Shown in pieces: positions 33,939-46,631 of a DNA stretch of 64,000 nucleotides. Each line of letters starts with the position of its first letter. Position 1 is the stretch's first letter. The position numbers and the translations under genes were made by a program. The notes beneath the pieces were generated by a model. That model had not been told where the DNA came from, searched no databases, and saw nothing but the letters and a program-made list of their open reading frames with translations. This stretch comes from Akkermansiaceae bacterium UBA2381 (GTDB taxonomy: Bacteria; Verrucomicrobiota; Verrucomicrobiia; Verrucomicrobiales; DEV007): NCBI GenBank assembly GCA_002344215.1, contig DDSV01000034.1:147164-211163 (forward strand), in the 5' to 3' direction.

Positions 33939-35015
33939 ATGGCTACAAAAATTGGAGTGATCGGAGCAGGCGGAATGGCCCGCTACCATATTGACGGATT
34001 CAGGAAAGCCGGGGCCGAAGTGGTCGCAATGGCGGATGTGAATGTGGAGGCAGCCAGGGCATCGGCGGAAGCCAACGGAATCGCCAAAGTCTATGCCGAT
34101 GTCGCTGAGATGCTGGCGAGTGACATTGACGCGGTCTCCATCATCGTCCCGAACAAATTTCACGGACCTCTTGCCATCCAGGCGCTCGAAGCCGGCAAAC
34201 ACGTCTTCTGTGAGAAACCTCCCGCAATGAATGCCGCCGAGGTCAGGGATATGATCGTTGCCCGCGACAAGGCCGGCAAACATCTCATGTTCAACTTCAA
34301 CAACCGCGCGCGTCCCGAGTCGCGTGAGATGAAGAAGCTCATCGACGGAGGCACGGTCGGTCGCATCAATTCAGCGCAGGCCAAGTGGATTCGCCGCGCC
34401 GGTATTCCCGGGTTTGGCGGCTGGTTCACGACCAAGGCCCTCTCCGGCGGCGGTCCCGTCATCGATTTGCTCCACATGCTCGATCTTGCGATGTATTTCA
34501 TGGGCAATCCCAAGCCGACCTATGTCACGGGACAAATTTTCGACGACCATATCAACAACAAGGATTTCAAGGGTCCCTGGGGTATCCCAGACCGAGAGGG
34601 CGGCGTCACCGATGTGGAGTCCGCTGCCCACGGATTCGTAACTTTCGAGACCGGTCAGGTCCTCAGCTTTCAGATGTCCTGGGCCGAGATGATCAAACGC
34701 GAAGAGGTTTCCGTTGTTTTCCAGGGTGTCAAAGCAGGAGGTAAAGTCGAGCGCCTTTTCGGCACCGACGGTATGGACGATACCGCGATCGACACGTGCG
34801 AACTCTATACTCAGGAGGCAGGAAAGCGCATCGATCAGACCATCGAGGTGGAGGAGTGCCAGGACATGGGGCGCATCAATTCCGCCGCAAACTTCGTTGA
34901 AGCGATCGAGGGCAAGGCCGCCCCGCTGAACAATGCCGAGCAGGGCCTGCAATTGATGCAGATCATTGATGCAGTCTATGCCTCGGCGGCGAGCGGGAAA
35001 CCGGTGGCGATCTGA
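33939..35015 (+). CDS. Gfo/Idh/MocA family oxidoreductase
   Basis: KIGVIGAGGMA, HVFCEKPPA, GGGPVIDLLHMLD. Confidence 0.93.
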   Translation: MATKIGVIGAGGMARYHIDGFRKAGAEVVAMADVNVEAARASAEANGIAKVYADVAEMLASDIDAVSIIVPNKFHGPLAIQALEAGKHVFCEKPPAMNAAEVRDMIVARDKAGKHLMFNFNNRARPESREMKKLIDGGTVGRINSAQAKWIRRAGIPGFGGWFTTKALSGGGPVIDLLHMLDLAMYFMGNPKPTYVTGQIFDDHINNKDFKGPWGIPDREGGVTDVESAAHGFVTFETGQVLSFQMSWAEMIKREEVSVVFQGVKAGGKVERLFGTDGMDDTAIDTCELYTQEAGKRIDQTIEVEECQDMGRINSAANFVEAIEGKAAPLNNAEQGLQLMQIIDAVYASAASGKPVAI

Positions 35016-35039
35016 GGGCGGATCTAACTGATTTTAGGG

Positions 35040-35070
35040 AAGGGCGGGGGAGTAGTCCTTCGCCCTTTTT
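35040..35070 (+). terminator. Intrinsic terminator
   Basis: AAGGGCGGGG/CCTTCGCCCTT stem followed by T-run. Confidence 0.7.
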
Positions 35071-35277
35071 CTTGAATCGTCCGGCCCCTTCTTGAGCGTG
35101 ATAGAGTTCCCGGGTGTGGTGAGATTGAACCCCGATTCAAGAGTAAATTGATCATGTGCAGCAGGTTCCCCGCGGACGGAGCGGGTTTAGCCTGATGGTA
35201 TAGGGCAAAAATAGCGTGATTCCTCCATGTCACTTATCAAAATCCAGATATAGTAAGCGCCTTTCGCTTTCAGATTC

Positions 35278-36366
35278 ATGGCCCTTCTTTTCACCTACGT
35301 TCTCATTGCTCTCTTTATTTCGTTTGTCTGTTCGCTTCTGGAGGCATGTCTTCTCACGATCACTCCATCTGCAATCAACAGTGGCGAGCAACGGGGTGCC
35401 CGATGGGCCGCTCGAATGAAAGCTTACAAGGCGGACATTGACCGCCCGCTTTCCGCGATTTTGACTCTTAACACGGTAGCTCACACCATGGGTGCCGCAG
35501 GGGCGGGTGCCCAGTATGCCAGAATATTCGGGACAACCGGTGAAGCCATCTTCGCAGGCGGCCTCACCCTGGCAATTCTTGTGCTAACTGAAATTATTCC
35601 GAAGACACTTGGCTCCCGCTACGCGGTCGCCCTTGCCGGTGTCGCCTCCACGATTCTGCCTCTGATGATCACCGGGCTTGCCCCGCTGGTGTGGTTCTCG
35701 CGCCAGATCACGAAGTTGATCACCCCGCGTGGCCATGTCGTGCCCGAGATGCATCGTGAGGAATTGCTCGCCATGACACGTCTCGGGGCCGAGTCGGGCC
35801 AGATCGATGATCAGGAGAGCCAGTTTGTACAGAACCTGATCCAGCTCCACTCGATGAAGACCTGGGACATCATGACCCCGCGTCCGGTCATCTTTGCCCT
35901 GCCCGAAACGATGCCGCTGACCGATTTCGTCAAAGCGGTCGAGGACAAGCCATTCAGCCGGATTCCAATCTACAAATCTAATCGCGATGAGATTTCGGGT
36001 TTTGTCCTGCGCGGTGATGTGCTCGTCGCCCACCTCAAGGACGACGAGGACAAGCTCACCCTCTCGGAGGTGGCCCGGCCCATCGCGGTTGCGGCGGACA
36101 TCACGCCGGTGGACGCCCTCTTCCGTCGTTTCATCTCCGAGCGTCACCAGATCATGCTGATCGTCGATGAGTTTGGCTCCACCGTCGGACTCGTTACCTT
36201 CGAGGATGTCATCGAGACAATCTTCGGGTTTGAAATTGTTGATGAGAAGGACAAGGTCGCCGATCTTCAGCTCCATGCCCGCAATCTCTGGAAAGAGAGG
36301 GCCCGCCGGATGGGAATTGAACTGGACGAGGACGGGCAACTCCCGCCGCCCTCGATGCAGCCATGA
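35278..36366 (+). CDS. CNNM/DUF21-CBS (CorC/HlyC, hemolysin-family) protein
   Basis: SFVCSLLEA, LSAILTLNT, EIIPKTLG, IMTPR, FSRIPIY, VDEFG..GLVT.EDVIE. Confidence 0.92.
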   Translation: MALLFTYVLIALFISFVCSLLEACLLTITPSAINSGEQRGARWAARMKAYKADIDRPLSAILTLNTVAHTMGAAGAGAQYARIFGTTGEAIFAGGLTLAILVLTEIIPKTLGSRYAVALAGVASTILPLMITGLAPLVWFSRQITKLITPRGHVVPEMHREELLAMTRLGAESGQIDDQESQFVQNLIQLHSMKTWDIMTPRPVIFALPETMPLTDFVKAVEDKPFSRIPIYKSNRDEISGFVLRGDVLVAHLKDDEDKLTLSEVARPIAVAADITPVDALFRRFISERHQIMLIVDEFGSTVGLVTFEDVIETIFGFEIVDEKDKVADLQLHARNLWKERARRMGIELDEDGQLPPPSMQP

Positions 36367-36382
36367 GCCAGGGCCTGCGCTG

Positions 36383-36415
36383 GTAGGGTTGCAATTTTCA
36401 TCGTCTTTGCTACCC
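36383..36415 (+). repeat. Possible GTAG-type REP-like palindrome
   Basis: GTAG + GGTTGCAA ...12 nt... TTGCTACC (7/8 stem), intergenic. Confidence 0.35.
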
Positions 36416-36456
36416 TCGAAGACCCGTATATCCGGCAACCTCAAAACCCACCTTTT

Positions 36457-37620
36457 ATGAATCGAAAACTACGCATGGGAATGGTCGGCGGCGGCCGTGG
36501 AGCATTCATCGGACAGGTCCACCGCATGGCGGCAAATCTGGACGGAAAGATCGAACTGGTCGCGGGATGTTTCTCATCAGACCCGGAGAAGTCCAGGCTT
36601 TCCGGCCAGGATTTTTTCCTCGATCCCGAGCGGGTTTACTCGACCTACAAGGAGATGGCGGAGAAGGAAGCGGCCCGTCCGGACAAGATCGATTTTGTTT
36701 CCATCGTGGTGCAAAACCATCTCCACTTTGAAGTCGCGAAAACGTTTATCGAGGCAGGCTTTAATGTCATCTGTGACAAGCCGATGACCCACTGCTATGA
36801 ACAGGCTCTCGAACTTCGTGAGATCGTAAGGAAGAGTGATCGGGTCTTCGCCCTGACTCACAACTACACCGGTTACCCCATGGTGAAGGAAGCGCGCCGC
36901 ATGGTCCGCGATGGTGAACTCGGACGTATCCTCAAGATTGTCGCTGAATACCCTCAGGGATATGCCGTCGGTGATGTCGAGGGTGACGGACAGGGCAAGA
37001 TCAACAACTGGCGCTCCGATCCAAAGATCGCCGGCATTTCGAACTGCATGGGCGACATCGGAACCCACGCGCACAACCTGATCCGCTACATCACTGGGCT
37101 GGAGATCACCGAGATCTGTTCCGAGCTGACTGCGTTTATCCCCGGTCGCACTCTCGATGACGATGGGAATAACCTCGTTCGTTTTGAAGGGGGAGCGAAG
37201 GGTATCATTCACGCCTCGCAAATCTCGAATGGAGATGAGAATGCGCTCAACATTCGTGTCTACGGCACCAAGGCCTCGATCGAGTGGCATCAGGAGGATC
37301 CGAATGAACTTATCGTGAAGTACGCCAACGCCCCGCGAAAAATTTATCGTCGCGGAAATGATTACATCAGCGAGGCGGCCTCCGGTCACGGGTATACCCG
37401 AACCCCCTTTGCGCATCCCGAGGGATTTATCGAAGCATTTGCCAACATCTATCTCGCGGCCGCAAGGGCGATCGCGGATCAGATTGACGGCAACCCTGCG
37501 CCCGAGGGCGGATATGATTTTCCCACGGTCGATGACGGAGTTGCCGGCGTCGCTTTCATCAAGGCGACGGTCGAGAGCTCCGCATCGGATCAGAAGTGGA
37601 TCAAATTCCCGGCGGTGTGA
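36457..37620 (+). CDS. Gfo/Idh/MocA family oxidoreductase
   Basis: LRMGMVGGG.GAFIG.VHR, VICDKPM, HNYTGYPMV, GDIGTHA, HPEGFIEAFANIY. Confidence 0.94.
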   Translation: MNRKLRMGMVGGGRGAFIGQVHRMAANLDGKIELVAGCFSSDPEKSRLSGQDFFLDPERVYSTYKEMAEKEAARPDKIDFVSIVVQNHLHFEVAKTFIEAGFNVICDKPMTHCYEQALELREIVRKSDRVFALTHNYTGYPMVKEARRMVRDGELGRILKIVAEYPQGYAVGDVEGDGQGKINNWRSDPKIAGISNCMGDIGTHAHNLIRYITGLEITEICSELTAFIPGRTLDDDGNNLVRFEGGAKGIIHASQISNGDENALNIRVYGTKASIEWHQEDPNELIVKYANAPRKIYRRGNDYISEAASGHGYTRTPFAHPEGFIEAFANIYLAAARAIADQIDGNPAPEGGYDFPTVDDGVAGVAFIKATVESSASDQKWIKFPAV

Positions 37621-37701
37621 GTTCCGGGGGAGGGCCGCCCCCAGCGGGCGTTCGTCCCGGACTTGTGTGGACGGTTTGCCAAACCGTCCCTAACCTTAAT
37701 C

Positions 37702-38886
37702 ATGGCCAAATCCCCTCCGCGCTATGTGACCAAAGCGGGTGACTCACCCCTGTGGGCCTCGGAACCCTTTCGCGTCTTTTTTCCGCTTGGAATCGCCGCG
37801 GCCTTGTTCGGTCTTCTGCTCTGGCCATTGCACTACGCGGGCTGGTGGGAACTGTATCCGGCGCTGCAGCATCCCCGTATCCTCATTTTTGGATTCGGTG
37901 CGGCTTTCGTATTCGGATTCCTCGGAACGGCCTGGCCCCGCTTCCTGGAAGCGGAGGCCCTGCGTGTTTGGGAGGTCGGAACTCTGATCGCCGGATGGAT
38001 CGTCGCTCAACTCGCCTATGCCCGGGGTTCCATTGCCGTCGGTGATTTGCTTGGAGGCATTACCTGTCTCGTCTTTCTCTTCGTTCTCGGCCGGCGTCTT
38101 TTCGGTGAGAAGCGCGAAATCCCTCCTCCGGGTTTTGCGTTGGCGTTTTTTTCCGTCGCTCTCGCCTCCGCGACTTTGTTTGCGTGGTCAGCGGGTTTGG
38201 GGGAATACTCGGTCCAGGTCAGCCTTCTTCTTCGTCTTTTCGCTTATCAGGGCTTTCTGCTTCTTCCTATTCTCGGGGTGGGCTCGTATCTCTTTGCCCG
38301 GTTTTTCCAGGTGGCGGGTGCGCCTCCCGCGTTCGGGAAAGGGCGCCATCGGGGCCTGTTCGTGTGGGGCGCTGCCGGACTCATTCTTGTGTCGTTTTTT
38401 ATTGAAGCCTATATCTCAGCCCGATGGGGCAATATGACTCGCTTCGGGGCGATGGTGCTCTGGGCGTGGGGCGCTCTTCCGGGAATCTGGGCCGTGAAGG
38501 CTCCGGGGACGCGGGCATGGGCATTGAGATTCGGATTGATCCTGCTTGCCCTCGCCTTCCTCTGTCGCGTGATCTGGCCTTCGCCTCTCTTTGCCTTTCA
38601 GCATCTCCTTTTTCTGGGAGGGTTTTGTCAGGTCATCCTGCTGACAGCCGATCGGGTCATTCTGGGACATTGTGATGATCTTGCGGGAGTACTGCCAAAG
38701 AGCCGAGCGTGGCAGTGGATGGTCTGGCTCATGGTGCTGACCGCGGCAACCCGTGCAACGGCGGATCTGGTTCCTTCGACTCGGGTTTCGCATCACATCT
38801 ATGCGGCTCTCATGCTGGTCACGATTTTGATGATCTGGATGGGACTTCATCTAAAGCGGCTACGCCGAATCCCGCCCGGCGAATGA
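37702..38886 (+). CDS. nnrS: NnrS family membrane protein
   Basis: EPFRVFFPLG, conserved His (QHPRILIFGF), HLLFLGG, multi-TM. Confidence 0.75.
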   Translation: MAKSPPRYVTKAGDSPLWASEPFRVFFPLGIAAALFGLLLWPLHYAGWWELYPALQHPRILIFGFGAAFVFGFLGTAWPRFLEAEALRVWEVGTLIAGWIVAQLAYARGSIAVGDLLGGITCLVFLFVLGRRLFGEKREIPPPGFALAFFSVALASATLFAWSAGLGEYSVQVSLLLRLFAYQGFLLLPILGVGSYLFARFFQVAGAPPAFGKGRHRGLFVWGAAGLILVSFFIEAYISARWGNMTRFGAMVLWAWGALPGIWAVKAPGTRAWALRFGLILLALAFLCRVIWPSPLFAFQHLLFLGGFCQVILLTADRVILGHCDDLAGVLPKSRAWQWMVWLMVLTAATRATADLVPSTRVSHHIYAALMLVTILMIWMGLHLKRLRRIPPGE

Positions 38887-41642
38887 GTTCCGCATCCGGC
38901 ATTCTCAGTTATCTCGCGGAATGTTACCGTGAGAACGGAAGTCGAGTCGGGATCACCAGTCTTGGGAACGCCCGGGTGAGGGAGTCGCTAATCGTCGAGG
39001 GCGAAGATGTGGTAGTCTCGAAGTCATACTTTGATGGGATCCTCTATCTCCCCGGGAAAAAAGCAGCGACGCTCGCGACCCGGACGAGGCTTTACGAAAA
39101 GGAGTGTGAACTGTTTTACGGATCGGTCTTCCTCTGCGGAAATCTGGAGACCGGGGAGACGCTTAAGCGGCCCGCTCTCGCCCCGCTCATATTGTATTCC
39201 GCAACGGTGGAGCAGATCAGCAACGATTCCGGCGCGGAATTTTTAATTAACACAAATCGCCGTCTCCTTAACTATGCGCTCCTCGAGAATTTCGGTGACG
39301 ACCGTTTCATCGCCCGATTCGAGCAATGTATCGACGAGTCGTCCCATACCGAGGGCTGTGTGGGAGAGATCAGGAGCTTGTTTGAGGAATTGTTTCCCGA
39401 TTCAGATACCAGCAGGCTCCTTAGCTACCCCCACCTTATCAGTGCAGGGGAGCTGGGGGACGCCGCCCTGACACCTTCCTCACCGGAAAACGCGGCAGGG
39501 AGGTCGATCCGTCTGCTTCCGGCCGCAGCCCTTTTTCTCGCGGATCGTTCCACCGAAATGCGCGGAGTCCTCAACGACTTGAAGGGAATGGCCGACGTCC
39601 CCCACGAGCTTTCCGATCCCGTTCGGGTCCTCATGGGTGAGCCTCCGATCGGGACCCCGGGGCTCAATCAGCGGCGTGGAGAAATTCCCGCTATCCTTAG
39701 CGCCGCTCAGGAAATGATCGCCGCCTCGGCCCGAACTCATTTTCTCACACTCGCTGTCGGACCGCCTGGCACAGGGAAGTCCTTCACTATTGCCGCCCTG
39801 GCGATGGAGGCAATGAGCCGCGGTGAGTCCGTTCTTATCGCTTCGAAGATGGATCATGCCGTGGATGTCGTGGCCGACAAGATCGAACTAGCGCTGGGAC
39901 TCCCCGGCATCTGCGTCCGGGCAGGGCGAAAGAGTTACCTAAAGGATTTGAAAAAATTTCTCGAAGATCTTCTCGCGGGGTTACTCACCAACGACCTTGT
40001 TACCTGCGCCACGGTCAAGCTCGCAAGAAAACATCTCAGTCAGGGAAGGCGAGCGATTGAGCGGGCCGGGTGGATTTTTGAAAGGAAGGGGCGGAGGGAG
40101 GAAAAACGCGGCGTTCTCCTCAATCGGGTAAACCCCGGGCTTATCGCCCGCTGGCGAATCTCGAGGCTTAAGCGAGCCGCCTCCGAACAGGGCAATCTCA
40201 ATCGTTTCGCCGGAGAACTCTCGAATCAATTGAATCGTCAGATCACGGAAACAGTCGGATTCCTGAAACTGAACCGCCGCTTTCTTCTTCAGAAGGCCCT
40301 GCGCCGTCACCGGACGACCTTCCAGGCTTTCTCAAAGGGGGTGCGCGCCCGTACCTCTCAGCGTCAGGAAACTTATTTCGAAGACGTGCGGTGGGATGCG
40401 TTGCTCGAAGCGCTTCCGGTCTGGCTCGTTAATCTGAGCGATCTTCACCGCATTATCCCGCTTGAAAGGGGGCTTTTCGACCTCGTCATCATCGACGAAG
40501 CGTCCCAGTGTGACATTGCCTCGGCGATGCCGGCGCTGCAGCGGGGAAAACGGGCGGTGATCACCGGTGATCCAAAGCAGTTACGCCATCTCTCCTTTCT
40601 TCAGGCCGCACGGCAGGAGGAGTTTGCCTCTCGTTTCGGGATGAGCGATGAGGAGAGCGAGAGATTTCATTTTCGTAATGTCAGTCTCGTAGATCTCGTT
40701 TCCGGGGCGATTCAAAGTCAGGAATCAGTCATCTTTCTGAACGAACACTTCCGCAGTCGTCCCTCCATCATCGAGTTCAGCAACCGGGAATTTTATGCGG
40801 GGAAACTCGCGATCATGACAGGTCACCGGGAGGCTGATCATCGGAGCGAAGCTCCGCTCTCGTTGATAAGCACCCGGGGCAAGCGAGCGGAGAACGGAGT
40901 AAACGCGAGTGAACTCGACGGGGTCATGACCCATTTGAAGACCCTGACTTCTCCGGGAGCACCACCGCTGAGTATCGGGATACTTTCCCCATTCCGGGCT
41001 CAGGTTGACGCGATTTTGAAAGCAGTGGAGAAGATGCCGGACCTGACCGGTATTCTCAACCGTCACGATCTCCTCGTGGGAACCGCACATTCGTTTCAAG
41101 GAGAAGAGCGTGACATTGTGCTCTTGTCCCTCGCTCTGGACGATGACAGTCCCGCGGCTAGTTTTCGATTTCTGGAGAAGGAGGACCTTTTTAATGTCTC
41201 CATTACCCGAGCCCGGCTCGAGTACCGGATTTTTGTCTCCTTCGATCCCATGCGAGCACCACTGAGTCTAGCCGGGCGTTACCTCGACTACGTGAGCCAA
41301 CCGGATAAAGTGAATCAGGCTGGCCCGATCGGGGAATCCCTGTTCACCGAACCCTTTAGGGTTGATGTAAGGACTGCGCTGGTGGAACGCGGGATGGAGG
41401 TGATAGAGCATTTTGTGCTTGGAGGTTACAGTGTTGATCTCCTCTGTTGTGGAAAGGGTAGAAGTCTCGGAATTGATCTGATAGGTTTTCCAGGGCCCCA
41501 CTCTGAGGCGATGAGTATCGAACGTCATCTCCTGATGCAACGGGCTGGAATACGATTGTTTCCCATTTGCCTCCTTGAGTGGCAGAGCAAACGCGATCTT
41601 GTTCTGCAGGATCTGGAGGAGTGGCTCGCGCGCCCCTCATAG
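38883..41642 (+). CDS. Upf1/DNA2-like SF1 helicase (AAA_11/AAA_12) with C-terminal restriction-endonuclease-like (DUF559/MTES_1575-type) domain
   Basis: GPPGTGKS, DLVIIDEASQ, ITGDPKQL, LNEHFRS, GILSPFRAQV, TAHSFQGEERD, NVSITRAR. C-term F..DV..AL..RG.......GGYSVDL...GIDLIG. ATGA overlap with nnrS stop. Confidence 0.88.
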   Translation: MSSASGILSYLAECYRENGSRVGITSLGNARVRESLIVEGEDVVVSKSYFDGILYLPGKKAATLATRTRLYEKECELFYGSVFLCGNLETGETLKRPALAPLILYSATVEQISNDSGAEFLINTNRRLLNYALLENFGDDRFIARFEQCIDESSHTEGCVGEIRSLFEELFPDSDTSRLLSYPHLISAGELGDAALTPSSPENAAGRSIRLLPAAALFLADRSTEMRGVLNDLKGMADVPHELSDPVRVLMGEPPIGTPGLNQRRGEIPAILSAAQEMIAASARTHFLTLAVGPPGTGKSFTIAALAMEAMSRGESVLIASKMDHAVDVVADKIELALGLPGICVRAGRKSYLKDLKKFLEDLLAGLLTNDLVTCATVKLARKHLSQGRRAIERAGWIFERKGRREEKRGVLLNRVNPGLIARWRISRLKRAASEQGNLNRFAGELSNQLNRQITETVGFLKLNRRFLLQKALRRHRTTFQAFSKGVRARTSQRQETYFEDVRWDALLEALPVWLVNLSDLHRIIPLERGLFDLVIIDEASQCDIASAMPALQRGKRAVITGDPKQLRHLSFLQAARQEEFASRFGMSDEESERFHFRNVSLVDLVSGAIQSQESVIFLNEHFRSRPSIIEFSNREFYAGKLAIMTGHREADHRSEAPLSLISTRGKRAENGVNASELDGVMTHLKTLTSPGAPPLSIGILSPFRAQVDAILKAVEKMPDLTGILNRHDLLVGTAHSFQGEERDIVLLSLALDDDSPAASFRFLEKEDLFNVSITRARLEYRIFVSFDPMRAPLSLAGRYLDYVSQPDKVNQAGPIGESLFTEPFRVDVRTALVERGMEVIEHFVLGGYSVDLLCCGKGRSLGIDLIGFPGPHSEAMSIERHLLMQRAGIRLFPICLLEWQSKRDLVLQDLEEWLARPS

Positions 41643-41714
41643 AAGTGGTCTCCACGCGACACGCCCGTGAACGCGGACCTTCCCGTTCGCGGGTTGATCC
41701 GGAAAGATAATGAG

Positions 41715-43037
41715 ATGATTCCGCGTCTCCTCATGGTTCTGCTCCTCTTGTCTATGACGGCAGGCAATTCTCGCGCCGATGATCCGGCTGCCCGTCCGAA
41801 TATCATTTTCATCCTCGCCGACGACCTTGGCTGGGCGGACGTTGGATACCATGGATCGGAAATCAAAACCCCGAATCTCGACCGGCTCGCGGCAGAAGGG
41901 ACTCGGCTGAATCAGCAATACGCCTACCCGACCTGCTCACCAACCCGGGTAGCTTTGCTCTCCGGACGTTACCCCAGCCGCTTCGGGGTTTTTGCGCCGC
42001 TTGGGGAAACCACAAAAATGACTGGAACGGATTCCCGTCTGCCTCACGAACTGAAGCGTCTCGGTTATCGCACTCATTTGTCGGGTAAGTGGCATATCGG
42101 TGAAACGCCCGAACACAGGCCCCGTAATTACGGATTCGACACCACCTACGGCTATCTGCGCGGGCAGATTGATCCTTACACCCACCGCTACAAGACCGGC
42201 GATCATGTCACCTGGCATCGCAATGATGAGTTTTTCGAGGAGGAGGGACATGTCACTGATCTTATCACCAACGAGGCGATTCGGGTCGTGAAGGAGTCAG
42301 GTGATGATCCTTTTTTCCTCTATGTTGCCCACCATTCACCGCACTATCCCCTGAATGAACCGCCGAAATGGATTGCTCCCTACGAGAAGACAATCTCCGA
42401 CCCGGCGAGACGCCACTTTGCGGCGGCGGTCAGCCATCTCGACGACGGGATAGGAAGACTGATCACAGCGCTGGATGAGTCGGGGAAAGGTGAGAACACC
42501 CTGGTCATTTTCTCATCCGACAATGGCGGGCAGCAAAACGCCCTTGAGTCCGGGAAGGTCTACGACGGCCGTTATGCGCCGCTTCCTCATCTCGGCAAGA
42601 ACCACCCCTTGCGCGGTTGGAAAGGGGATCTTTACGAAGGTGGCATTCGGGTCCCTGCCTTTGTCCGCTGGACCGGAGTCATCGAATCAGGGGGAGTAAT
42701 CGAATCGCCAACTCACATTTGTGACTGGGTGCCCACCTTGATCGGACTCGCCGGAGGTGCGACTGATTCAGCCTGGAAACTCGACGGTCTGAGTATTCTC
42801 TCACTTCTGAAAGGCGAGGGGGTGGAAACTGGAGCGCGAACGCTCTACTGGCGAACCAATCAGGGAGTTGCGATTCGCGAGGGGGATTGGAAGCTGATCG
42901 TCAGCGGAAAGGGAGGAGCGATGGAGTTGTTCGATCTGGCCTCCGACCCCAATGAGACCAATGACCTTGCGACTTCCCGGTCGCAGAAAGTCGCGCTGCT
43001 TCGTGGGAAACTCGACTCTATCAGGGCAGGAGATTAG
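41715..43037 (+). CDS. Secreted arylsulfatase (formylglycine-dependent)
   Basis: RPNIIFILADDLG, CSPTR (CxPxR), GKWHIG, SSDNGG, KGDLYEGGIRVP. Confidence 0.95.
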   Translation: MIPRLLMVLLLLSMTAGNSRADDPAARPNIIFILADDLGWADVGYHGSEIKTPNLDRLAAEGTRLNQQYAYPTCSPTRVALLSGRYPSRFGVFAPLGETTKMTGTDSRLPHELKRLGYRTHLSGKWHIGETPEHRPRNYGFDTTYGYLRGQIDPYTHRYKTGDHVTWHRNDEFFEEEGHVTDLITNEAIRVVKESGDDPFFLYVAHHSPHYPLNEPPKWIAPYEKTISDPARRHFAAAVSHLDDGIGRLITALDESGKGENTLVIFSSDNGGQQNALESGKVYDGRYAPLPHLGKNHPLRGWKGDLYEGGIRVPAFVRWTGVIESGGVIESPTHICDWVPTLIGLAGGATDSAWKLDGLSILSLLKGEGVETGARTLYWRTNQGVAIREGDWKLIVSGKGGAMELFDLASDPNETNDLATSRSQKVALLRGKLDSIRAGD

Positions 43038-43074
43038 CCTGAATAGCGGGGATAGTTCCACCCGGGATGAGGTC

Positions 43075-44427
43075 TCAAAGCATCGCTCCAAAACCCGTCA
43101 GTCGCTTCACTACCTCCTCTTTCCCTAACAGGACCAGAACGGGGGCCAGATCAGCTCCGGTCGTGCTGCCCATGACGGCGACGCGGCAGGGAAGCATGAG
43201 AGCTCCCATCTTGAGCCCGATTTTTCCGGCAGCTTCGTTAATTGCTGACTTGATGCCGTCGACGGTCCAGTCACTCGTTCCCGCGATACCATCAGCGAGA
43301 GCGGAGATTACCTGGGGGAGTTCCGCCTTTTCGCGCACCTTGGCGATGGAAGCGTCGTCGTAAGTCACCGTGTCGGAAAAGATCGTGGCAATGACGCCGG
43401 GGATCTCACTGAGGAGCTGGGCACGGTCACGGGCCAGTTCGAGCGCGGCCGGGACCCGGGCATCGGTCGGATCAATACCCGCGCGGCTGAGAAAAGGGGC
43501 CGCGTTTGTGAGCAGGTCAGCCGCGGAGAGATGCTTGAGATGCTCGCTGTTGACCCAGCGGCATTTGTCGTAGTCGAATTTCGAATTCGAACTGTTTACC
43601 CCGGGAAGATCAAAGCGGGCTTTGAGTTCCTCGATGGAGAAGATCTCCTGATCATCTTTTGCCGACCATCCTAGAAGGGCCATATAGTTGTTCACCGCAG
43701 CGGGCAGGAATCCGTTTTCCTGATACTCGTGAATGAGCGCTCCCTGGTCGCGTTTGCTCATCTTCGTGCCGCTCGGGTTGAGGTTGAGCGGAATGTGGGC
43801 AAAGACCGGAGGCGTCGCGCCGAAGGCTTCAAACAGGGCAAGGTGCTTCGGTGTGTTGGAGAGGTGATCCTCCCCGCGAATGACGTGGGTGATCGCCATC
43901 TCAATGTCATCGACCACATTCACAAAGTGAAAAATGTAGCCGCCGTTCGGACGTTTAATGACGATGTCGGGATTCGCCTCGACTTCCTGTTTCGTTTCCG
44001 CGTCGTAGCGCCGCGATCCCTGCTCTTTGAGGTTGGTCGAGACTTCTCCGCAGATGGCGTCTGACACAGTGATCAGTTTGTCCGGAACGCGGAAGCGGAT
44101 CGCGCCGTCGTCTTCGTAGACGTGACCGGAGGCTTCGAGCCTGGCGAGGTAGCGATCATAAACATCATTGCGTTCGCTTTGAAAGTAAGGGCCGTATTCT
44201 CCGCCGACGCCCGGACCCTCGTCCCACTCGAGTCCCAGCCACTTGAGGCCGTCGAGGATAATCTGCATGGACTCCGTTGTGCTGCGGTCGGCGTCGGTGT
44301 CCTCGACCCGCAGGATGAAGGTGCCGCCGTGGTGACGGGCGTAGAGCCAGTTATAGAGCGCAGTGCGGGCACCTCCGATGTGGAGGAAGCCGGTAGGTGA
44401 GGGGGCAAAACGGGTGCGGACGGTCAT
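43075..44427 (-). CDS. gltX: Glutamate--tRNA ligase
   Basis: VRTRFAPSPTGFLHIGG, RVEDTD, VIRGEDHLSNT, KMSKR. Confidence 0.97.
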   Translation of the reverse strand: MTVRTRFAPSPTGFLHIGGARTALYNWLYARHHGGTFILRVEDTDADRSTTESMQIILDGLKWLGLEWDEGPGVGGEYGPYFQSERNDVYDRYLARLEASGHVYEDDGAIRFRVPDKLITVSDAICGEVSTNLKEQGSRRYDAETKQEVEANPDIVIKRPNGGYIFHFVNVVDDIEMAITHVIRGEDHLSNTPKHLALFEAFGATPPVFAHIPLNLNPSGTKMSKRDQGALIHEYQENGFLPAAVNNYMALLGWSAKDDQEIFSIEELKARFDLPGVNSSNSKFDYDKCRWVNSEHLKHLSAADLLTNAAPFLSRAGIDPTDARVPAALELARDRAQLLSEIPGVIATIFSDTVTYDDASIAKVREKAELPQVISALADGIAGTSDWTVDGIKSAINEAAGKIGLKMGALMLPCRVAVMGSTTGADLAPVLVLLGKEEVVKRLTGFGAML

Positions 44428-44516
44428 CGCGGTGAAGGTGCCGCAATGTGAGCGATGGTCAAGGTTGGATGGGTTGAGGGGAGTTCTTCGTTCTTCGTTC
44501 ACAGCTTTTGTTCTGG

Positions 44517-46631
44517 CTACTCCTTCCCCTCGGGCTTCCGAATCTGCAGCTGCTTCTCGGGCCATTCCATCTTCTTCGCAAACTCAGCCAGATAACTCCA
44601 TTTTTCGGCATCTCCGGTGTAGAGCCTAAGCTGGCTCCTTTCCCCGGCGATCGCGGCGATTTGAGGAAGGTCGGTGAAGCGCAGCACGTTCAGAATCTCC
44701 GGCCCCTCCTGATGGGTGAGGGGCAGGTCGTGAAGGTCGAGCCGATGAATGTCCTTTTCATAGAGTGAGGCGTAGAGCGCGTTGCCCGCCATGACTCCGT
44801 TGGCCTGGATCCAGAGTTTAGGCTGATCGGCTCCCTCAATGCTGCGCAACGCCTGGATTCCCCGACGAATGTCCCAGATTCGCATCGTGTCCAGCGTCTG
44901 CCCAAGCAAGGCGAACCGTCGGCGGATGTGGATGCGCTCCTTCTCGTCTGACGTCCACGCGGTCGGCCCCACCCCACGAACGGGCAGGTAGAGCATTCCC
45001 CACTTCTGCGAGGCATGGAGACCCTTCTCAGCCTCATAGGCTTCGGCGTTCGTTTCGGGAAGGGTAAGACCGGGGAAGGCGGCGGAGAATCCTGCTCCGA
45101 AAGTGCTGAGGAATTCCAACCAGCCTTTCTCATCGAGTGCATTGACGACGCAGAGATCTAGCGCTCCGGTCTCGCTTCCCGCGGGCTGGACCAGGTAAAA
45201 GGGGAGACGGACGCCCGCCTGGCTGTCAAAACTCCAACGGCTGAAGGTCATCCCGTCCTTTTCCCCGCGGAAGTCTTCGGAGAGGTTGAGGTCTTCACCG
45301 GCTGCGGGCCAGCCGCGGAAACAACGATTTTGAAGGCGATTCAGAGTGAGTGCCTTCTCTGCCGCCCAATCTGACGGAGACTCAGGCACGGAGAGATCTT
45401 CGGGGACCCGCTTAGTGAAATATTCGTCGATAAAGGTGTTCCTTTCGTTCTCCGGAAGTTTGGTGAAGACCTTGAGTTCGGTCGGTTCAAAAATCTTCGG
45501 AGCCGAGGCATCCGTCAGTTCATCCCCGATTTCCCTGCCCTTGAGATGGCGTTCGAACCAGTGAAAGGCGGAAACTCGCAGGGGCTGGGTGTCCTTGTGG
45601 GGACCTTCATAGAAGGCTAGGCCGATCTTATCAACCGCGTTCATGGCTTCGTAAACTTTCCGTGTCTTCTGATAGACATCGACGACCCCGTCGAGCGGAA
45701 AAATAGTGTCCTTATCCGTATTCAGGATCATCAGCGGACGCGGGGCGATTAATGCTGTTAATAGCGGAAAATCCCAGCGGTAAGTGTTGACCATGAACAT
45801 GCAATCGCAATGCCCTTCAATGCAGCCGTCCACGACATGGTTCTGCATCGAGGTGATACCCGCGACAGGTGCGGCGACTTTGATGCGATCATCGAGCGCG
45901 GCGATCCAGAGTGTGTAGGCTCCGCCTCCGGAGCGACCCGTGACACCGAATTTCTCCTTATCGACCTCGGGACGGGTCTCGAGATAGTCCAAAGCCCGGA
46001 TCGAGTTCCAGGCCTCTACTCCGGCCGGGGTGTAACCGCGCGAGTTCCACCACCATCGCCCGAGGTTGTGAGTGCCGTGGTGTTTGCCCTCGATCTCCCC
46101 GAGTTGGAGGGTATCGATGGTCAGGCAGGTGTATCCGTTTTTAGCGAACCAGGTGCCATGATGCTGATACGAGGTCTTGTTGCCGTAGCTGACTCCGTCA
46201 ATACTCACCTTACCGTGACCGCAGACGTAGAGGATGGTCGGAAGCGGACCGTCCTGTTTCGCGGGTCGGTAGAAGTTCGCCGTCACGTAGAGACCGGGCC
46301 GCGACTGGAAGGTCAGATTCTCGACGATCACTCCGTCCCGTTCTGTTGTCCCTGTGATCGTGGCCTTCAGATCTGACCTCGCCGGCAGGGGCTGGAGCCC
46401 GAGCATTTCAAAGAGCTGACGTCTCAGGTCGGCCTGGGCGGCGGGCCAATCGGTGTTGTTTTCGATGAAGGCGGCATTGCGGGCGGTGAGACGCCGAGTC
46501 TCCTTCTCAAAATAGGCGGCGAGCATAGCATCACCTTCCGTGGGATCAGTCGGGATGTCGCGATAGTCGGCGGAATGCAGTGCCGAAGCGGCGCAGAGAG
46601 CGAGGGAGAGCCAGGTCAGTCGGGGGATCAT
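44517..46631 (-). CDS. Secreted double alpha/beta hydrolase (acetyl-xylan esterase/prolyl oligopeptidase-like)
   Basis: Signal peptide, FQSRPGLYVTANFY, LYVCGH, RALDYL..RPEVD, nucleophile GRSGGG, second degenerate hydrolase half. Confidence 0.87.
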   Translation of the reverse strand: MIPRLTWLSLALCAASALHSADYRDIPTDPTEGDAMLAAYFEKETRRLTARNAAFIENNTDWPAAQADLRRQLFEMLGLQPLPARSDLKATITGTTERDGVIVENLTFQSRPGLYVTANFYRPAKQDGPLPTILYVCGHGKVSIDGVSYGNKTSYQHHGTWFAKNGYTCLTIDTLQLGEIEGKHHGTHNLGRWWWNSRGYTPAGVEAWNSIRALDYLETRPEVDKEKFGVTGRSGGGAYTLWIAALDDRIKVAAPVAGITSMQNHVVDGCIEGHCDCMFMVNTYRWDFPLLTALIAPRPLMILNTDKDTIFPLDGVVDVYQKTRKVYEAMNAVDKIGLAFYEGPHKDTQPLRVSAFHWFERHLKGREIGDELTDASAPKIFEPTELKVFTKLPENERNTFIDEYFTKRVPEDLSVPESPSDWAAEKALTLNRLQNRCFRGWPAAGEDLNLSEDFRGEKDGMTFSRWSFDSQAGVRLPFYLVQPAGSETGALDLCVVNALDEKGWLEFLSTFGAGFSAAFPGLTLPETNAEAYEAEKGLHASQKWGMLYLPVRGVGPTAWTSDEKERIHIRRRFALLGQTLDTMRIWDIRRGIQALRSIEGADQPKLWIQANGVMAGNALYASLYEKDIHRLDLHDLPLTHQEGPEILNVLRFTDLPQIAAIAGERSQLRLYTGDAEKWSYLAEFAKKMEWPEKQLQIRKPEGKE

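What the first reader, a model, noticed from the sequence alone, without database searches (positions are those of the whole stretch)
37702..41642. Upf1-like helicase with nuclease-like tail translationally coupled to nnrS: candidate defence or nitrosative-stress effector
Seen: all SF1 motifs are intact, there is an uncharacterised ~290-aa N-terminal region, and the C-terminal domain resembles DUF559/MTES_1575 nucleases with the usual AIE.DG written as GIDLIG. The start codon overlaps the nnrS stop (ATGA). Known: SF1B helicase + Vsr/REase-like fusions recur among anti-phage proteins (e.g. Hhe-type), and NnrS is linked to NO stress. Inference: either a stand-alone defence gene inserted into the nnrS transcript or a real stress-coupled nucleic-acid processing unit. 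The nuclease site may be altered or inactive.
Basis: partly seen in the sequence, partly recalled or inferred. Interest (0 to 1): 0.62.

Follow-up and report, generated by a model that had tools for sequence, protein, structure and literature searches.

The report
Compact Hhe-like helicase behind nnrS
The interval holds two overlapping genes, a membrane NnrS protein and a 919-residue helicase that is a short, uncharacterised cousin of the anti-phage protein Hhe; the pairing occurs only in this one bacterial genus, so it is probably local gene wiring and not a new stress system.

Summary
Coordinates 37702-41642 cover two genes. One is nnrS (37702-38886, 394 aa). The other is an SF1B Upf1-like helicase (38883-41642, 919 aa) whose ATG overlaps the nnrS TGA.

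The helicase has three parts:
- an N-domain of about 270 aa, remotely homologous to DUF4011;
- a complete helicase core;
- a Vsr/MTES_1575-fold tail. In this tail the canonical IE.DG..H motif reads ID[LV][IV]G..G in the whole family.

It is a compact relative of Hhe, not a member. It lacks DUF3320, the full catalytic motif and the model scores. The ~900-aa family is found in many phyla (at least 591 loci). It is patchy within genera: 8/25, 14/81 and 11/81 species. It has no recurrent partner gene, shows no defence-island enrichment, and was not found on phages.

The nnrS adjacency, with the ATGA overlap, is conserved only inside this Verrucomicrobiales genus. It sits in a variable slot between a core GFO-type oxidoreductase gene and gltX. 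There, either gene is found lost or decayed without the other.

My reading is a stand-alone accessory helicase that happens to be wired behind nnrS in this genus. A defence role is plausible but unproven. This scan has already met the family on other DNA. Interest is modest.

The parts
37669..37689 (+). 9-bp-stem hairpin/palindrome (GGACGGTTTGCCAAACCGTCC) between the GFO-family oxidoreductase gene and nnrS, 13 nt before the nnrS ATG
   Evidence: Orthologous spacers in relatives carry strong terminator-like hairpins with a U-run at the same place (z -5.5 and -4.0). The window copy has no U-run.
37702..38886 (+). nnrS, a 394-aa polytopic membrane protein; a genus-specific paralogue
   Evidence: Pfam NnrS 4e-21, 76 bits, covering 3-367 of 371 profile positions. 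Orthologues at 48-69% identity sit next to the same GFO gene in the genus. A second paralogue at 35% identity lies elsewhere in this genome.
38883..38886 (+). ATGA: the helicase start codon overlaps the nnrS stop codon
   Evidence: The same ATGA is at the helicase start in 8 of 9 genus loci that hold both genes. That its TGA is the nnrS stop was read directly only in the window; in three other loci the tblastn nnrS end coincides with the helicase start.
38883..41642 (+). 919-aa compact Hhe-like SF1B helicase (whole gene, including the stop codon)
38883..39692 (+). N-terminal domain (residues 1-270), remotely DUF4011-like
   Evidence: AF2 pLDDT 88.9, pTM 0.82. No PDB match: Foldseek gave none, VIA best Z 4.5. 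hhalign against the DUF4011 region of giant Hhe-like proteins: probability 91.6%, E 8e-7 over 160 columns. The domain occurs almost only in this ~900-aa architecture. The Atlas feature neighbours are DUF4011 clusters (a lead only).
39693..41240 (+). Upf1-like SF1B helicase core (AAA_11 and AAA_12), with an insert of about 170 aa rich in charged residues between motifs Ia and II
   Evidence: Pfam AAA_11 281-568 and AAA_12 611-780. The profile hits Sen1, Upf1, IGHMBP2 and DNA2 in the PDB.
41241..41639 (+). C-terminal Vsr/MTES_1575-type restriction-endonuclease fold. D852, R887 and W900 are invariant in the family and D865 is nearly so. The canonical second Asp and the His are replaced.
   Evidence: AF2 pLDDT 85.6. 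VIA Z 11.9 to 3hrl, 10.3 to I-Bth0305I, 8.2 to Vsr. hhalign to MTES_1575 of Hhe-like proteins: 96.9%, E 1.5e-10.

Best explanation
The helicase is a stand-alone, chromosomally encoded accessory protein. It belongs to an uncharacterised ~900-aa family that is a compact relative of Hhe: a DUF4011-like N-domain, a Upf1-type SF1B motor, and a Vsr/MTES_1575-fold tail.

Inferred mechanism: the motor hydrolyses ATP to move 5'->3' along single-stranded nucleic acid. The N-domain selects or senses the substrate. The tail either cuts with a reduced two-carboxylate site (D852, D865, plus R887) or only grips nucleic acid.

By analogy with Hhe, the most likely role is action on foreign or aberrant nucleic acid. 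This part is inferred, not shown.

In this Verrucomicrobiales genus the gene was fixed once, directly behind a genus-specific nnrS paralogue with a 4-nt overlap. It is therefore probably co-transcribed and translationally coupled with nnrS. That wiring is lineage-specific and not required by either protein.
For: Architecture and homology.

The family is one fixed architecture. 210 representatives of 50%-identity clusters share the N-domain, and nearly all are about 900 aa. There are at least 591 loci across Verrucomicrobiota, Planctomycetota, Bacteroidota, Acidobacteriota, Gammaproteobacteria, Myxococcota and other phyla.

The gene is accessory. Full-length copies occur in 7 of the 25 genus genomes including this one, with a remnant in an eighth. 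It was found in 14 of 81 species of the genus holding the Shewanella locus L102 and in 11 of 81 of the genus holding the Pseudoalteromonas locus L074.

No partner gene. No neighbour cluster recurs beyond close relatives, and nnrS lies within 10 kb only in same-genus loci.

Slot states between the GFO-type gene and gltX in the genus:
- empty (G013, G018);
- nnrS only (G008, G017, G019, G023);
- both genes (9 genomes);
- helicase without nnrS (G022);
- helicase with nnrS cut down to about 110 aa (L031);
- an 83-aa helicase remnant (G001).

The ATGA junction is kept in 8 of 9 pairs. Pairwise identities of nnrS and helicase co-vary (r 0.79), which fits inheritance as a unit.

In E. coli hhe, a point mutant in the Vsr domain (E1731A) abolishes defence (bioRxiv 10.1101/2022.06.16.496414).
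Against: No experiment exists for this family. Scores are far below the cutoffs of every defence model: Hhe 80.9 against 2000 bits, ProA 143.5 against 1500. PADLOC matches cover only the generic helicase core.

At most about 3% of 268 neighbours at positions +-1 and +-2 hit PADLOC models at E <= 1e-10. Most neighbours are metabolic or housekeeping genes.

No copy was found in 50,697 phage records, and none covering at least 80% of the protein in 72,556 plasmid records.

The second Asp and the His of the Vsr-type motif are missing in the whole family, so nuclease activity is doubtful. A DUF4011 gene is core in P. aeruginosa, so DUF4011 helicases need not be defence genes (10.1101/2022.11.11.516204).

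The long-kept 4-nt overlap could reflect a real functional tie to NnrS in this genus.
Confidence: 0.55

Rival explanations
1. This is a non-defence accessory helicase for nucleic-acid maintenance, such as RNA surveillance or DNA repair. Its REase-fold tail has lost catalysis and serves as a binding module, as RAP domains do in organellar RNA-binding proteins.
For: The catalytic D and H of the Vsr-type motif are replaced family-wide. The tail model also matches the RAP module of FASTKD4 and mitoribosomal proteins at Z 7.9-9.4. Neighbours are mostly housekeeping genes, and synteny is conserved within lineages such as the two Shewanella loci, three Colwellia-group loci and three Planctomycetota loci. 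The family was not found on phages, and no copy covering 80% or more of the protein was found on plasmids. Earlier scan note e1-4002405 read a cousin as a native gene.
Against: The gene is present in only 14-32% of species in three genera, and it decays in place. This is unusual for a maintenance function. Two acidic residues at the canonical beta2 and beta3 positions (one invariant, one nearly so) and an invariant Arg remain, which suits a working metal site. The closest characterised relative, Hhe, is a defence protein.
Confidence: 0.28
2. NnrS and the helicase form a real functional unit in this genus. Under this reading, nitrosative or oxidative stress sensed or handled at the membrane by NnrS is coupled, through obligatory co-expression, to processing of damaged nucleic acid by the helicase.
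For: The ATGA junction is kept in 8 of 9 species although the proteins have diverged to 49-63% identity, apart from one close pair at 92%. Both genes evolve at a similar fast rate, with mean identities of 59% and 57% against 76% for GltX and 91% for GFO, and their distances correlate at r 0.79.
Against: The adjacency is confined to one genus and one chromosomal slot, so it counts as a single evolutionary event. The helicase stays intact without nnrS in G022 and L031. nnrS stays intact without the helicase in G008, G017, G019 and G023. No NO-metabolism or regulator genes lie nearby. The two papers in the library that mention both nnrS and helicase appear, from title and abstract only, to be unrelated genome surveys; they were not read.
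Confidence: 0.12
3. The gene is a decaying relic that no longer does anything.
For: Remnants and deletions occur in sister genomes such as G001 and G007. The nuclease motif is weak.
Against: The 919-codon frame is intact. Every residue that is invariant across 25 to 67 homologues from many phyla is kept in this copy. The altered motif is a feature of the whole family, not a lesion in this copy.
Confidence: 0.05

Closest known systems
Hhe (HheA): single-gene anti-phage helicase with a Vsr-type nuclease. Models: NCBIfam NF042953 and PADLOC Hhe. Reference as I recall it, not read here: Gao et al. 2020.
   Same: The domain order is the same: a DUF4011-type N-domain, a Upf1-like AAA_11/AAA_12 motor, and an MTES_1575/Vsr-fold domain. 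Profile-profile homology was shown here for both flanking domains against giant Hhe-like proteins of the same bacterial order.
   Different: It is half the size: 919 aa against 1,800-2,050 aa. It lacks the extra N-terminal extension of 300-400 aa, the ~600-aa insert in the motor, and a DUF3320 or WGR tail. IE.DG..H is replaced by ID.[IV]G..G. It scores 80.9 bits against a cutoff of 2000. Anti-phage activity is untested.
ProA (NCBIfam NF058533), MkoA/MkoC of Mokosh, and PDC-S37 (PADLOC)
   Same: They share the Upf1-like motor, especially the second RecA domain.
   Different: Matches cover only residues ~273-853 of the query and a fraction of each profile. ProA scores 143.5 bits against a cutoff of 1500. 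There is no PLD nuclease gene in the window. A PLDc_2 gene lies just upstream in only a few distant family loci.
Eukaryotic Upf1, Sen1, IGHMBP2 and DNA2 (SF1B helicases)
   Same: These are the best solved-structure matches to the motor, with E 1e-31 to 1e-17. The motif set is the same.
   Different: The accessory domains differ completely. Only the motor aligns.
NnrS (Pfam PF05940), for the upstream gene
   Same: Full-length match at 76 bits against a cutoff of 28.
   Different: It is a fast-evolving paralogue limited to this genus. It shares 35% identity with the genome's other nnrS.

Membership tests
Hhe (NF042953 / PADLOC Hhe) | Whole-protein score above the curated cutoff | tested here: not met
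   80.9 bits against a cutoff of 2000. The match covers only 532-750. PADLOC Hhe E 4e-18, helicase core only.
Hhe (NF042953 / PADLOC Hhe) | DUF4011 N-terminal domain | tested here: inconclusive
   No Pfam hit in this protein; 1 of 25 homologues hits DUF4011 at E 5e-4. hhalign against the DUF4011 region of Hhe-like proteins: 91.6%, E 8e-7 over 160 columns. This is remote homology, not family-level membership.
Hhe (NF042953 / PADLOC Hhe) | Upf1-like AAA_11 + AAA_12 motor with intact motifs | tested here: met
Hhe (NF042953 / PADLOC Hhe) | MTES_1575/Vsr nuclease domain with the catalytic D...E.D..H motif | tested here: not met
   The fold and the homology are met: Z 11.9 to 3hrl, hhalign 96.9%. 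But the second Asp is I/V and the His is G in all 67 aligned members. Pfam gives 23.7 bits against a cutoff of 38.2.
Hhe (NF042953 / PADLOC Hhe) | C-terminal DUF3320 after the nuclease domain | tested here: not met
   The protein ends 6 residues after the REase-fold domain, and there is no DUF3320 hit. The giant relatives carry DUF3320 or WGR.
Hhe (NF042953 / PADLOC Hhe) | Protects against phage when expressed alone | not testable with these tools
   Needs a phage-challenge experiment.
ProA (NF058533) | Whole-protein score above the curated cutoff | tested here: not met
   143.5 bits against a cutoff of 1500.
Mokosh (MkoA+MkoB / MkoC) | Helicase paired or fused with a PLD nuclease | tested here: not met
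   No PLD domain in the protein or in the window's neighbours. Only the core matches MkoA/MkoC.
SF1B Upf1-like helicases | Motifs I, Ia, II, III, V and VI, and profile similarity to Upf1/Sen1/IGHMBP2 | tested here: met
NnrS (PF05940), upstream gene | Score above the gathering threshold over the full profile | tested here: met
   76.2 bits against 28, profile positions 3-367 of 371.
Defence-island gene (operational criterion) | Known defence genes enriched among close neighbours | tested here: not met
   About 2-5 of 137 neighbours at +-1 and about 5 of 131 at +-2 hit PADLOC models at E <= 1e-10. No matched control set was run.

The most novel reading that the evidence does not exclude
The compact family has turned the Vsr-type nuclease fold into a non-cutting nucleic-acid clamp. 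In this genus it has also been recruited into a membrane-stress regulon, so that NnrS expression under nitrosative stress obligatorily brings up a helicase that clears damaged or stalled RNA or DNA. That would be a stress-coupled surveillance unit and not a defence gene.
Probability: 0.1. Interest if true: 0.6.

Novelty: new variant of a known kind. Interest (0 to 1): 0.3.

Why it matters
A ~900-aa helicase family found in many phyla has no assigned function. It shares both flanking domains with the validated anti-phage protein Hhe, yet it has lost two of the residues expected in a Vsr-type active site. Knowing whether it still cuts, and what it acts on, would show how far the DUF4011-helicase-Vsr design can be cut down. 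It would also show whether such proteins are always defence genes. The nnrS wiring matters only locally: it offers a natural case in which expression of such a helicase is tied to a membrane stress gene.

Tried and rejected
- One 1313-codon ORF over 37702-41642: rejected. It is two frames overlapping by 4 nt.
I used the search for related loci on genome contigs instead.
- Fold match for the N-domain: Foldseek on the PDB gave nothing with E <= 0.001, and VIA-wide gave a best Z of 4.5. This does not show that the fold is new.
- Conserved partner gene: all-against-all clustering of 429 neighbours found only clusters specific to single lineages.
- nnrS near distant family members: tblastn found none outside the genus, and NnrS was absent from the 25 most frequent Pfam families among the immediate neighbours.
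- Promoter and terminator consensus scan of 35000-44800: no more sites than in shuffled sequence.
- Phage or plasmid carriage: none on phages. On plasmids there were only partial core matches, plus one 69% match on an 859-kb replicon.
- Whether hhe E1731 is the Glu that aligns with D865: not checked, because I had no E. coli hhe sequence by reference.
Full report
**What is there**

The interval 37702-41642 is not one ORF. It holds two genes in different frames.
- nnrS runs from 37702 to 38886 (394 aa). It matches Pfam NnrS at 76 bits against a cutoff of 28, over nearly the whole profile.
- The helicase runs from 38883 to 41642 (919 aa).
- The helicase ATG and the nnrS TGA share the four bases ATGA at 38883-38886.

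- Every SF1 motif is present and lies in a column that is invariant across 25 diverse homologues.
- Walker A begins at residue 293, after an N-terminal region with no Pfam hit.
- The last ~95 residues match MTES_1575 weakly: E 5e-5, 23.7 bits against a cutoff of 38.2.

**Anatomy of the helicase**

The motor is Upf1-like SF1B. A family profile finds Sen1, Upf1, IGHMBP2 and DNA2 among solved structures.

The N-domain (residues 1-270):
- It models with confidence (pLDDT 88.9, pTM 0.82).
- It found no convincing PDB match. Foldseek gave none, and VIA-wide gave a best Z of 4.5.
- A full HMMER scan of 1.8 billion cluster representatives found it in 210 of them, and nearly all full-length ones are about 900 aa. 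It is therefore a family-specific domain in one fixed architecture.
- Genomes of the same bacterial order carry canonical giant Hhe-type proteins of 1,800-2,050 aa, with DUF4011, AAA_11/12, MTES_1575 and DUF3320 or WGR.
- A profile-profile comparison with the DUF4011 region of those giants gives 91.6% probability, E 8e-7, over 160 columns, including the shared APL(I/L)LYP(A/V) motif.
- Language-model neighbours of the N-domain are also DUF4011 clusters, which is only a lead.

The C-domain:
- It models as an alpha-beta-beta-beta-alpha-beta restriction-endonuclease fold (pLDDT 85.6).
- Its best structural matches are the DUF559-type protein NGO0050 (3hrl, Z 11.9, rmsd 2.0 Å over 89 residues), the I-Bth0305I catalytic domain (Z 10.3) and Vsr (Z 8.2).
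- hhalign against the MTES_1575 domains of the giants gives 96.9%, E 1.5e-10.
- In that alignment, family GIDLIGYPG lies on canonical GIECDGAxYH.
- The first Asp (D852) is invariant. The Glu position is an almost invariant Asp (D865). The second Asp is I or V, and the His is G, in all 67 aligned members. R887 and W900 are also invariant.

**Family range**

- Near-full-length homologues (31-82% identity, most with 97-100% coverage) occur in Verrucomicrobiota, Planctomycetota, Bacteroidota, Acidobacteriota, Chlorobiota/Kapabacteria, Myxococcota, Spirochaetota and marine Gammaproteobacteria. There are at least 591 confirmed loci in one-genome-per-species contigs.
- Source names of the closest homologues place the window's organism in the Verrucomicrobiales.
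- The gene is accessory wherever I sampled. Full-length copies are in 7 of the 25 genomes of its own genus (this one included), with a remnant in an eighth. It was found in 14 of 81 species of the genus holding the Shewanella locus L102, and in 11 of 81 of the genus holding the Pseudoalteromonas locus L074.
- It was not found in 50,697 phage records. No copy covering 80% or more of the protein was found in 72,556 plasmid records.

**The nnrS link**

Within the genus there is a syntenic backbone: a GFO/IDH/MocA oxidoreductase gene (87-94% identical, present in 21 of 24 genomes), then a variable slot, then convergent gltX.

The slot is found in these states:
- empty (G013, G018);
- nnrS alone (G008, G017, G019, G023);
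- nnrS plus helicase (the window, G003, G006, G009, G015, G020, L032, L033, L034);
- helicase without nnrS (G022);
- intact helicase behind an nnrS cut down to about 110 aa (L031);
- nnrS with an internal deletion followed by an 83-aa helicase fragment (G001);
- nnrS fragments only (G007).

Where both genes are present, ATGA sits at the helicase start in 8 of 9 loci. Pairwise identities of the two proteins co-vary at r 0.79, although one very close pair weighs heavily on that figure. Both genes evolve faster than their flanks: mean identities are 59% and 57%, against 76% for GltX and 91% for GFO.

This fits a pair that formed once, was inherited vertically, and then lost either member independently.

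Outside the genus, none of 74 loci with up to 10 kb of flank on each side contains an nnrS homologue. NnrS also does not appear among the frequent Pfam families of the immediate neighbours.

**Context**

- Clustering 429 neighbours found no partner that recurs beyond close relatives.
- Immediate neighbours are mostly metabolic or housekeeping genes: SurE, MFS transporters, GMP synthase, S20, hydrolases.
- A few neighbours are conflict-type genes: PLDc_2 three times, AriA-like ATPases twice, HipA twice.
- At E <= 1e-10, at most about 3% of the 268 neighbours at +-1 and +-2 hit PADLOC models. I ran no matched control, but this is not the picture of a defence island.
- The window's own neighbours are oxidoreductases, a methyltransferase, BamB-like and Skp-like proteins, a CNNM/CBS protein, a sulfatase, gltX, an esterase, a dehydrogenase and an aminotransferase.
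- Composition is flat across the region.

**Mechanism**

Shown:
- the architecture;
- homology of all three parts to Hhe-type proteins;
- conservation of the motor motifs and of D852, D865, R887 and W900;
- the gene's accessory status;
- its independence from nnrS.

Inferred:
- an ATP-driven 5'->3' translocase on single-stranded nucleic acid;
- an N-domain that selects the substrate;
- a tail that either cuts with a reduced carboxylate site or only binds.

In E. coli hhe, a Vsr-domain mutant (E1731A) abolishes the weak anti-T7 activity (bioRxiv 10.1101/2022.06.16.496414). I could not check whether that Glu is the one aligned with D865. A DUF4011 gene is core in P. aeruginosa (10.1101/2022.11.11.516204). 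DUF4011 helicases are therefore not always defence genes.

**Verdict**

This is a real, intact gene of an uncharacterised compact Hhe-like family. It is not a member of Hhe, ProA or Mokosh by their own models.

The nnrS coupling is real but confined to one genus, and either gene can do without the other. A defence role is plausible but unproven, and a non-defence role with a non-catalytic tail is a serious rival.

This scan met the same family before on other DNA (e1-1509148 and e1-4002405, with similar readings). My tests here were made independently of those notes.

Noticed in passing
window 37621-37701; L033:2169-2239; L021:4735-4802; also L014, L018, L024: In several genus relatives the spacer between the GFO gene and nnrS holds a strong GC-rich hairpin plus a U-run that ends only about 5-10 nt before the nnrS ATG (z -5.5 and -4.0). 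The window has a 9-bp hairpin at the same place but no U-run. nnrS may therefore depend on terminator read-through or on an unusual promoter arrangement.
   Followed up: partly
L076:358-1035, L085:8941-9627, L104:9253-9939, L097:4301-5026: A ~226-aa protein sits on the same strand just upstream of the family helicase in four distant loci (Cryomorpha, Motilimonas, Schleiferiaceae, Flavobacteriales); in L076 the gap is 2 nt. The two copies scanned (L076, L085) are PLDc_2 proteins. The pairing recalls Mokosh, which combines a helicase with a PLD nuclease.
   Followed up: partly
window 41667-43037: A sulfatase gene lies 25 nt downstream of the helicase. It is present in the slot only in G000, G022 and G001, so the slot between the GFO gene and gltX also varies in this third gene.
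   Followed up: partly
L015:6013-7423 and L032:6790-8823: In G009 and in strain BCK34, an extra 1.4-2.0 kb lies between the GFO gene and nnrS. I did not annotate it.
   Followed up: no
L117:3724-8757 (G009:C67): A same-genus genome that has the compact helicase also encodes a 1678-aa Upf1-like helicase with a canonical MTES_1575/DUF559 domain and a C-terminal GreA/GreB-type domain. That is an unusual fusion.
   Followed up: no
G000:C11:34900-36012: This genome has a second nnrS paralogue, 35% identical, elsewhere. The copy next to the helicase belongs to a genus-specific, fast-evolving branch.
   Followed up: no
G086:C1:4114738-4117386 and G086:C1:3208126-3210363: One genome of the genus that holds the Shewanella locus L102 carries two matches to the family helicase: a full-length copy and a second match covering residues 135-878 of the 878-aa query.
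   Followed up: no
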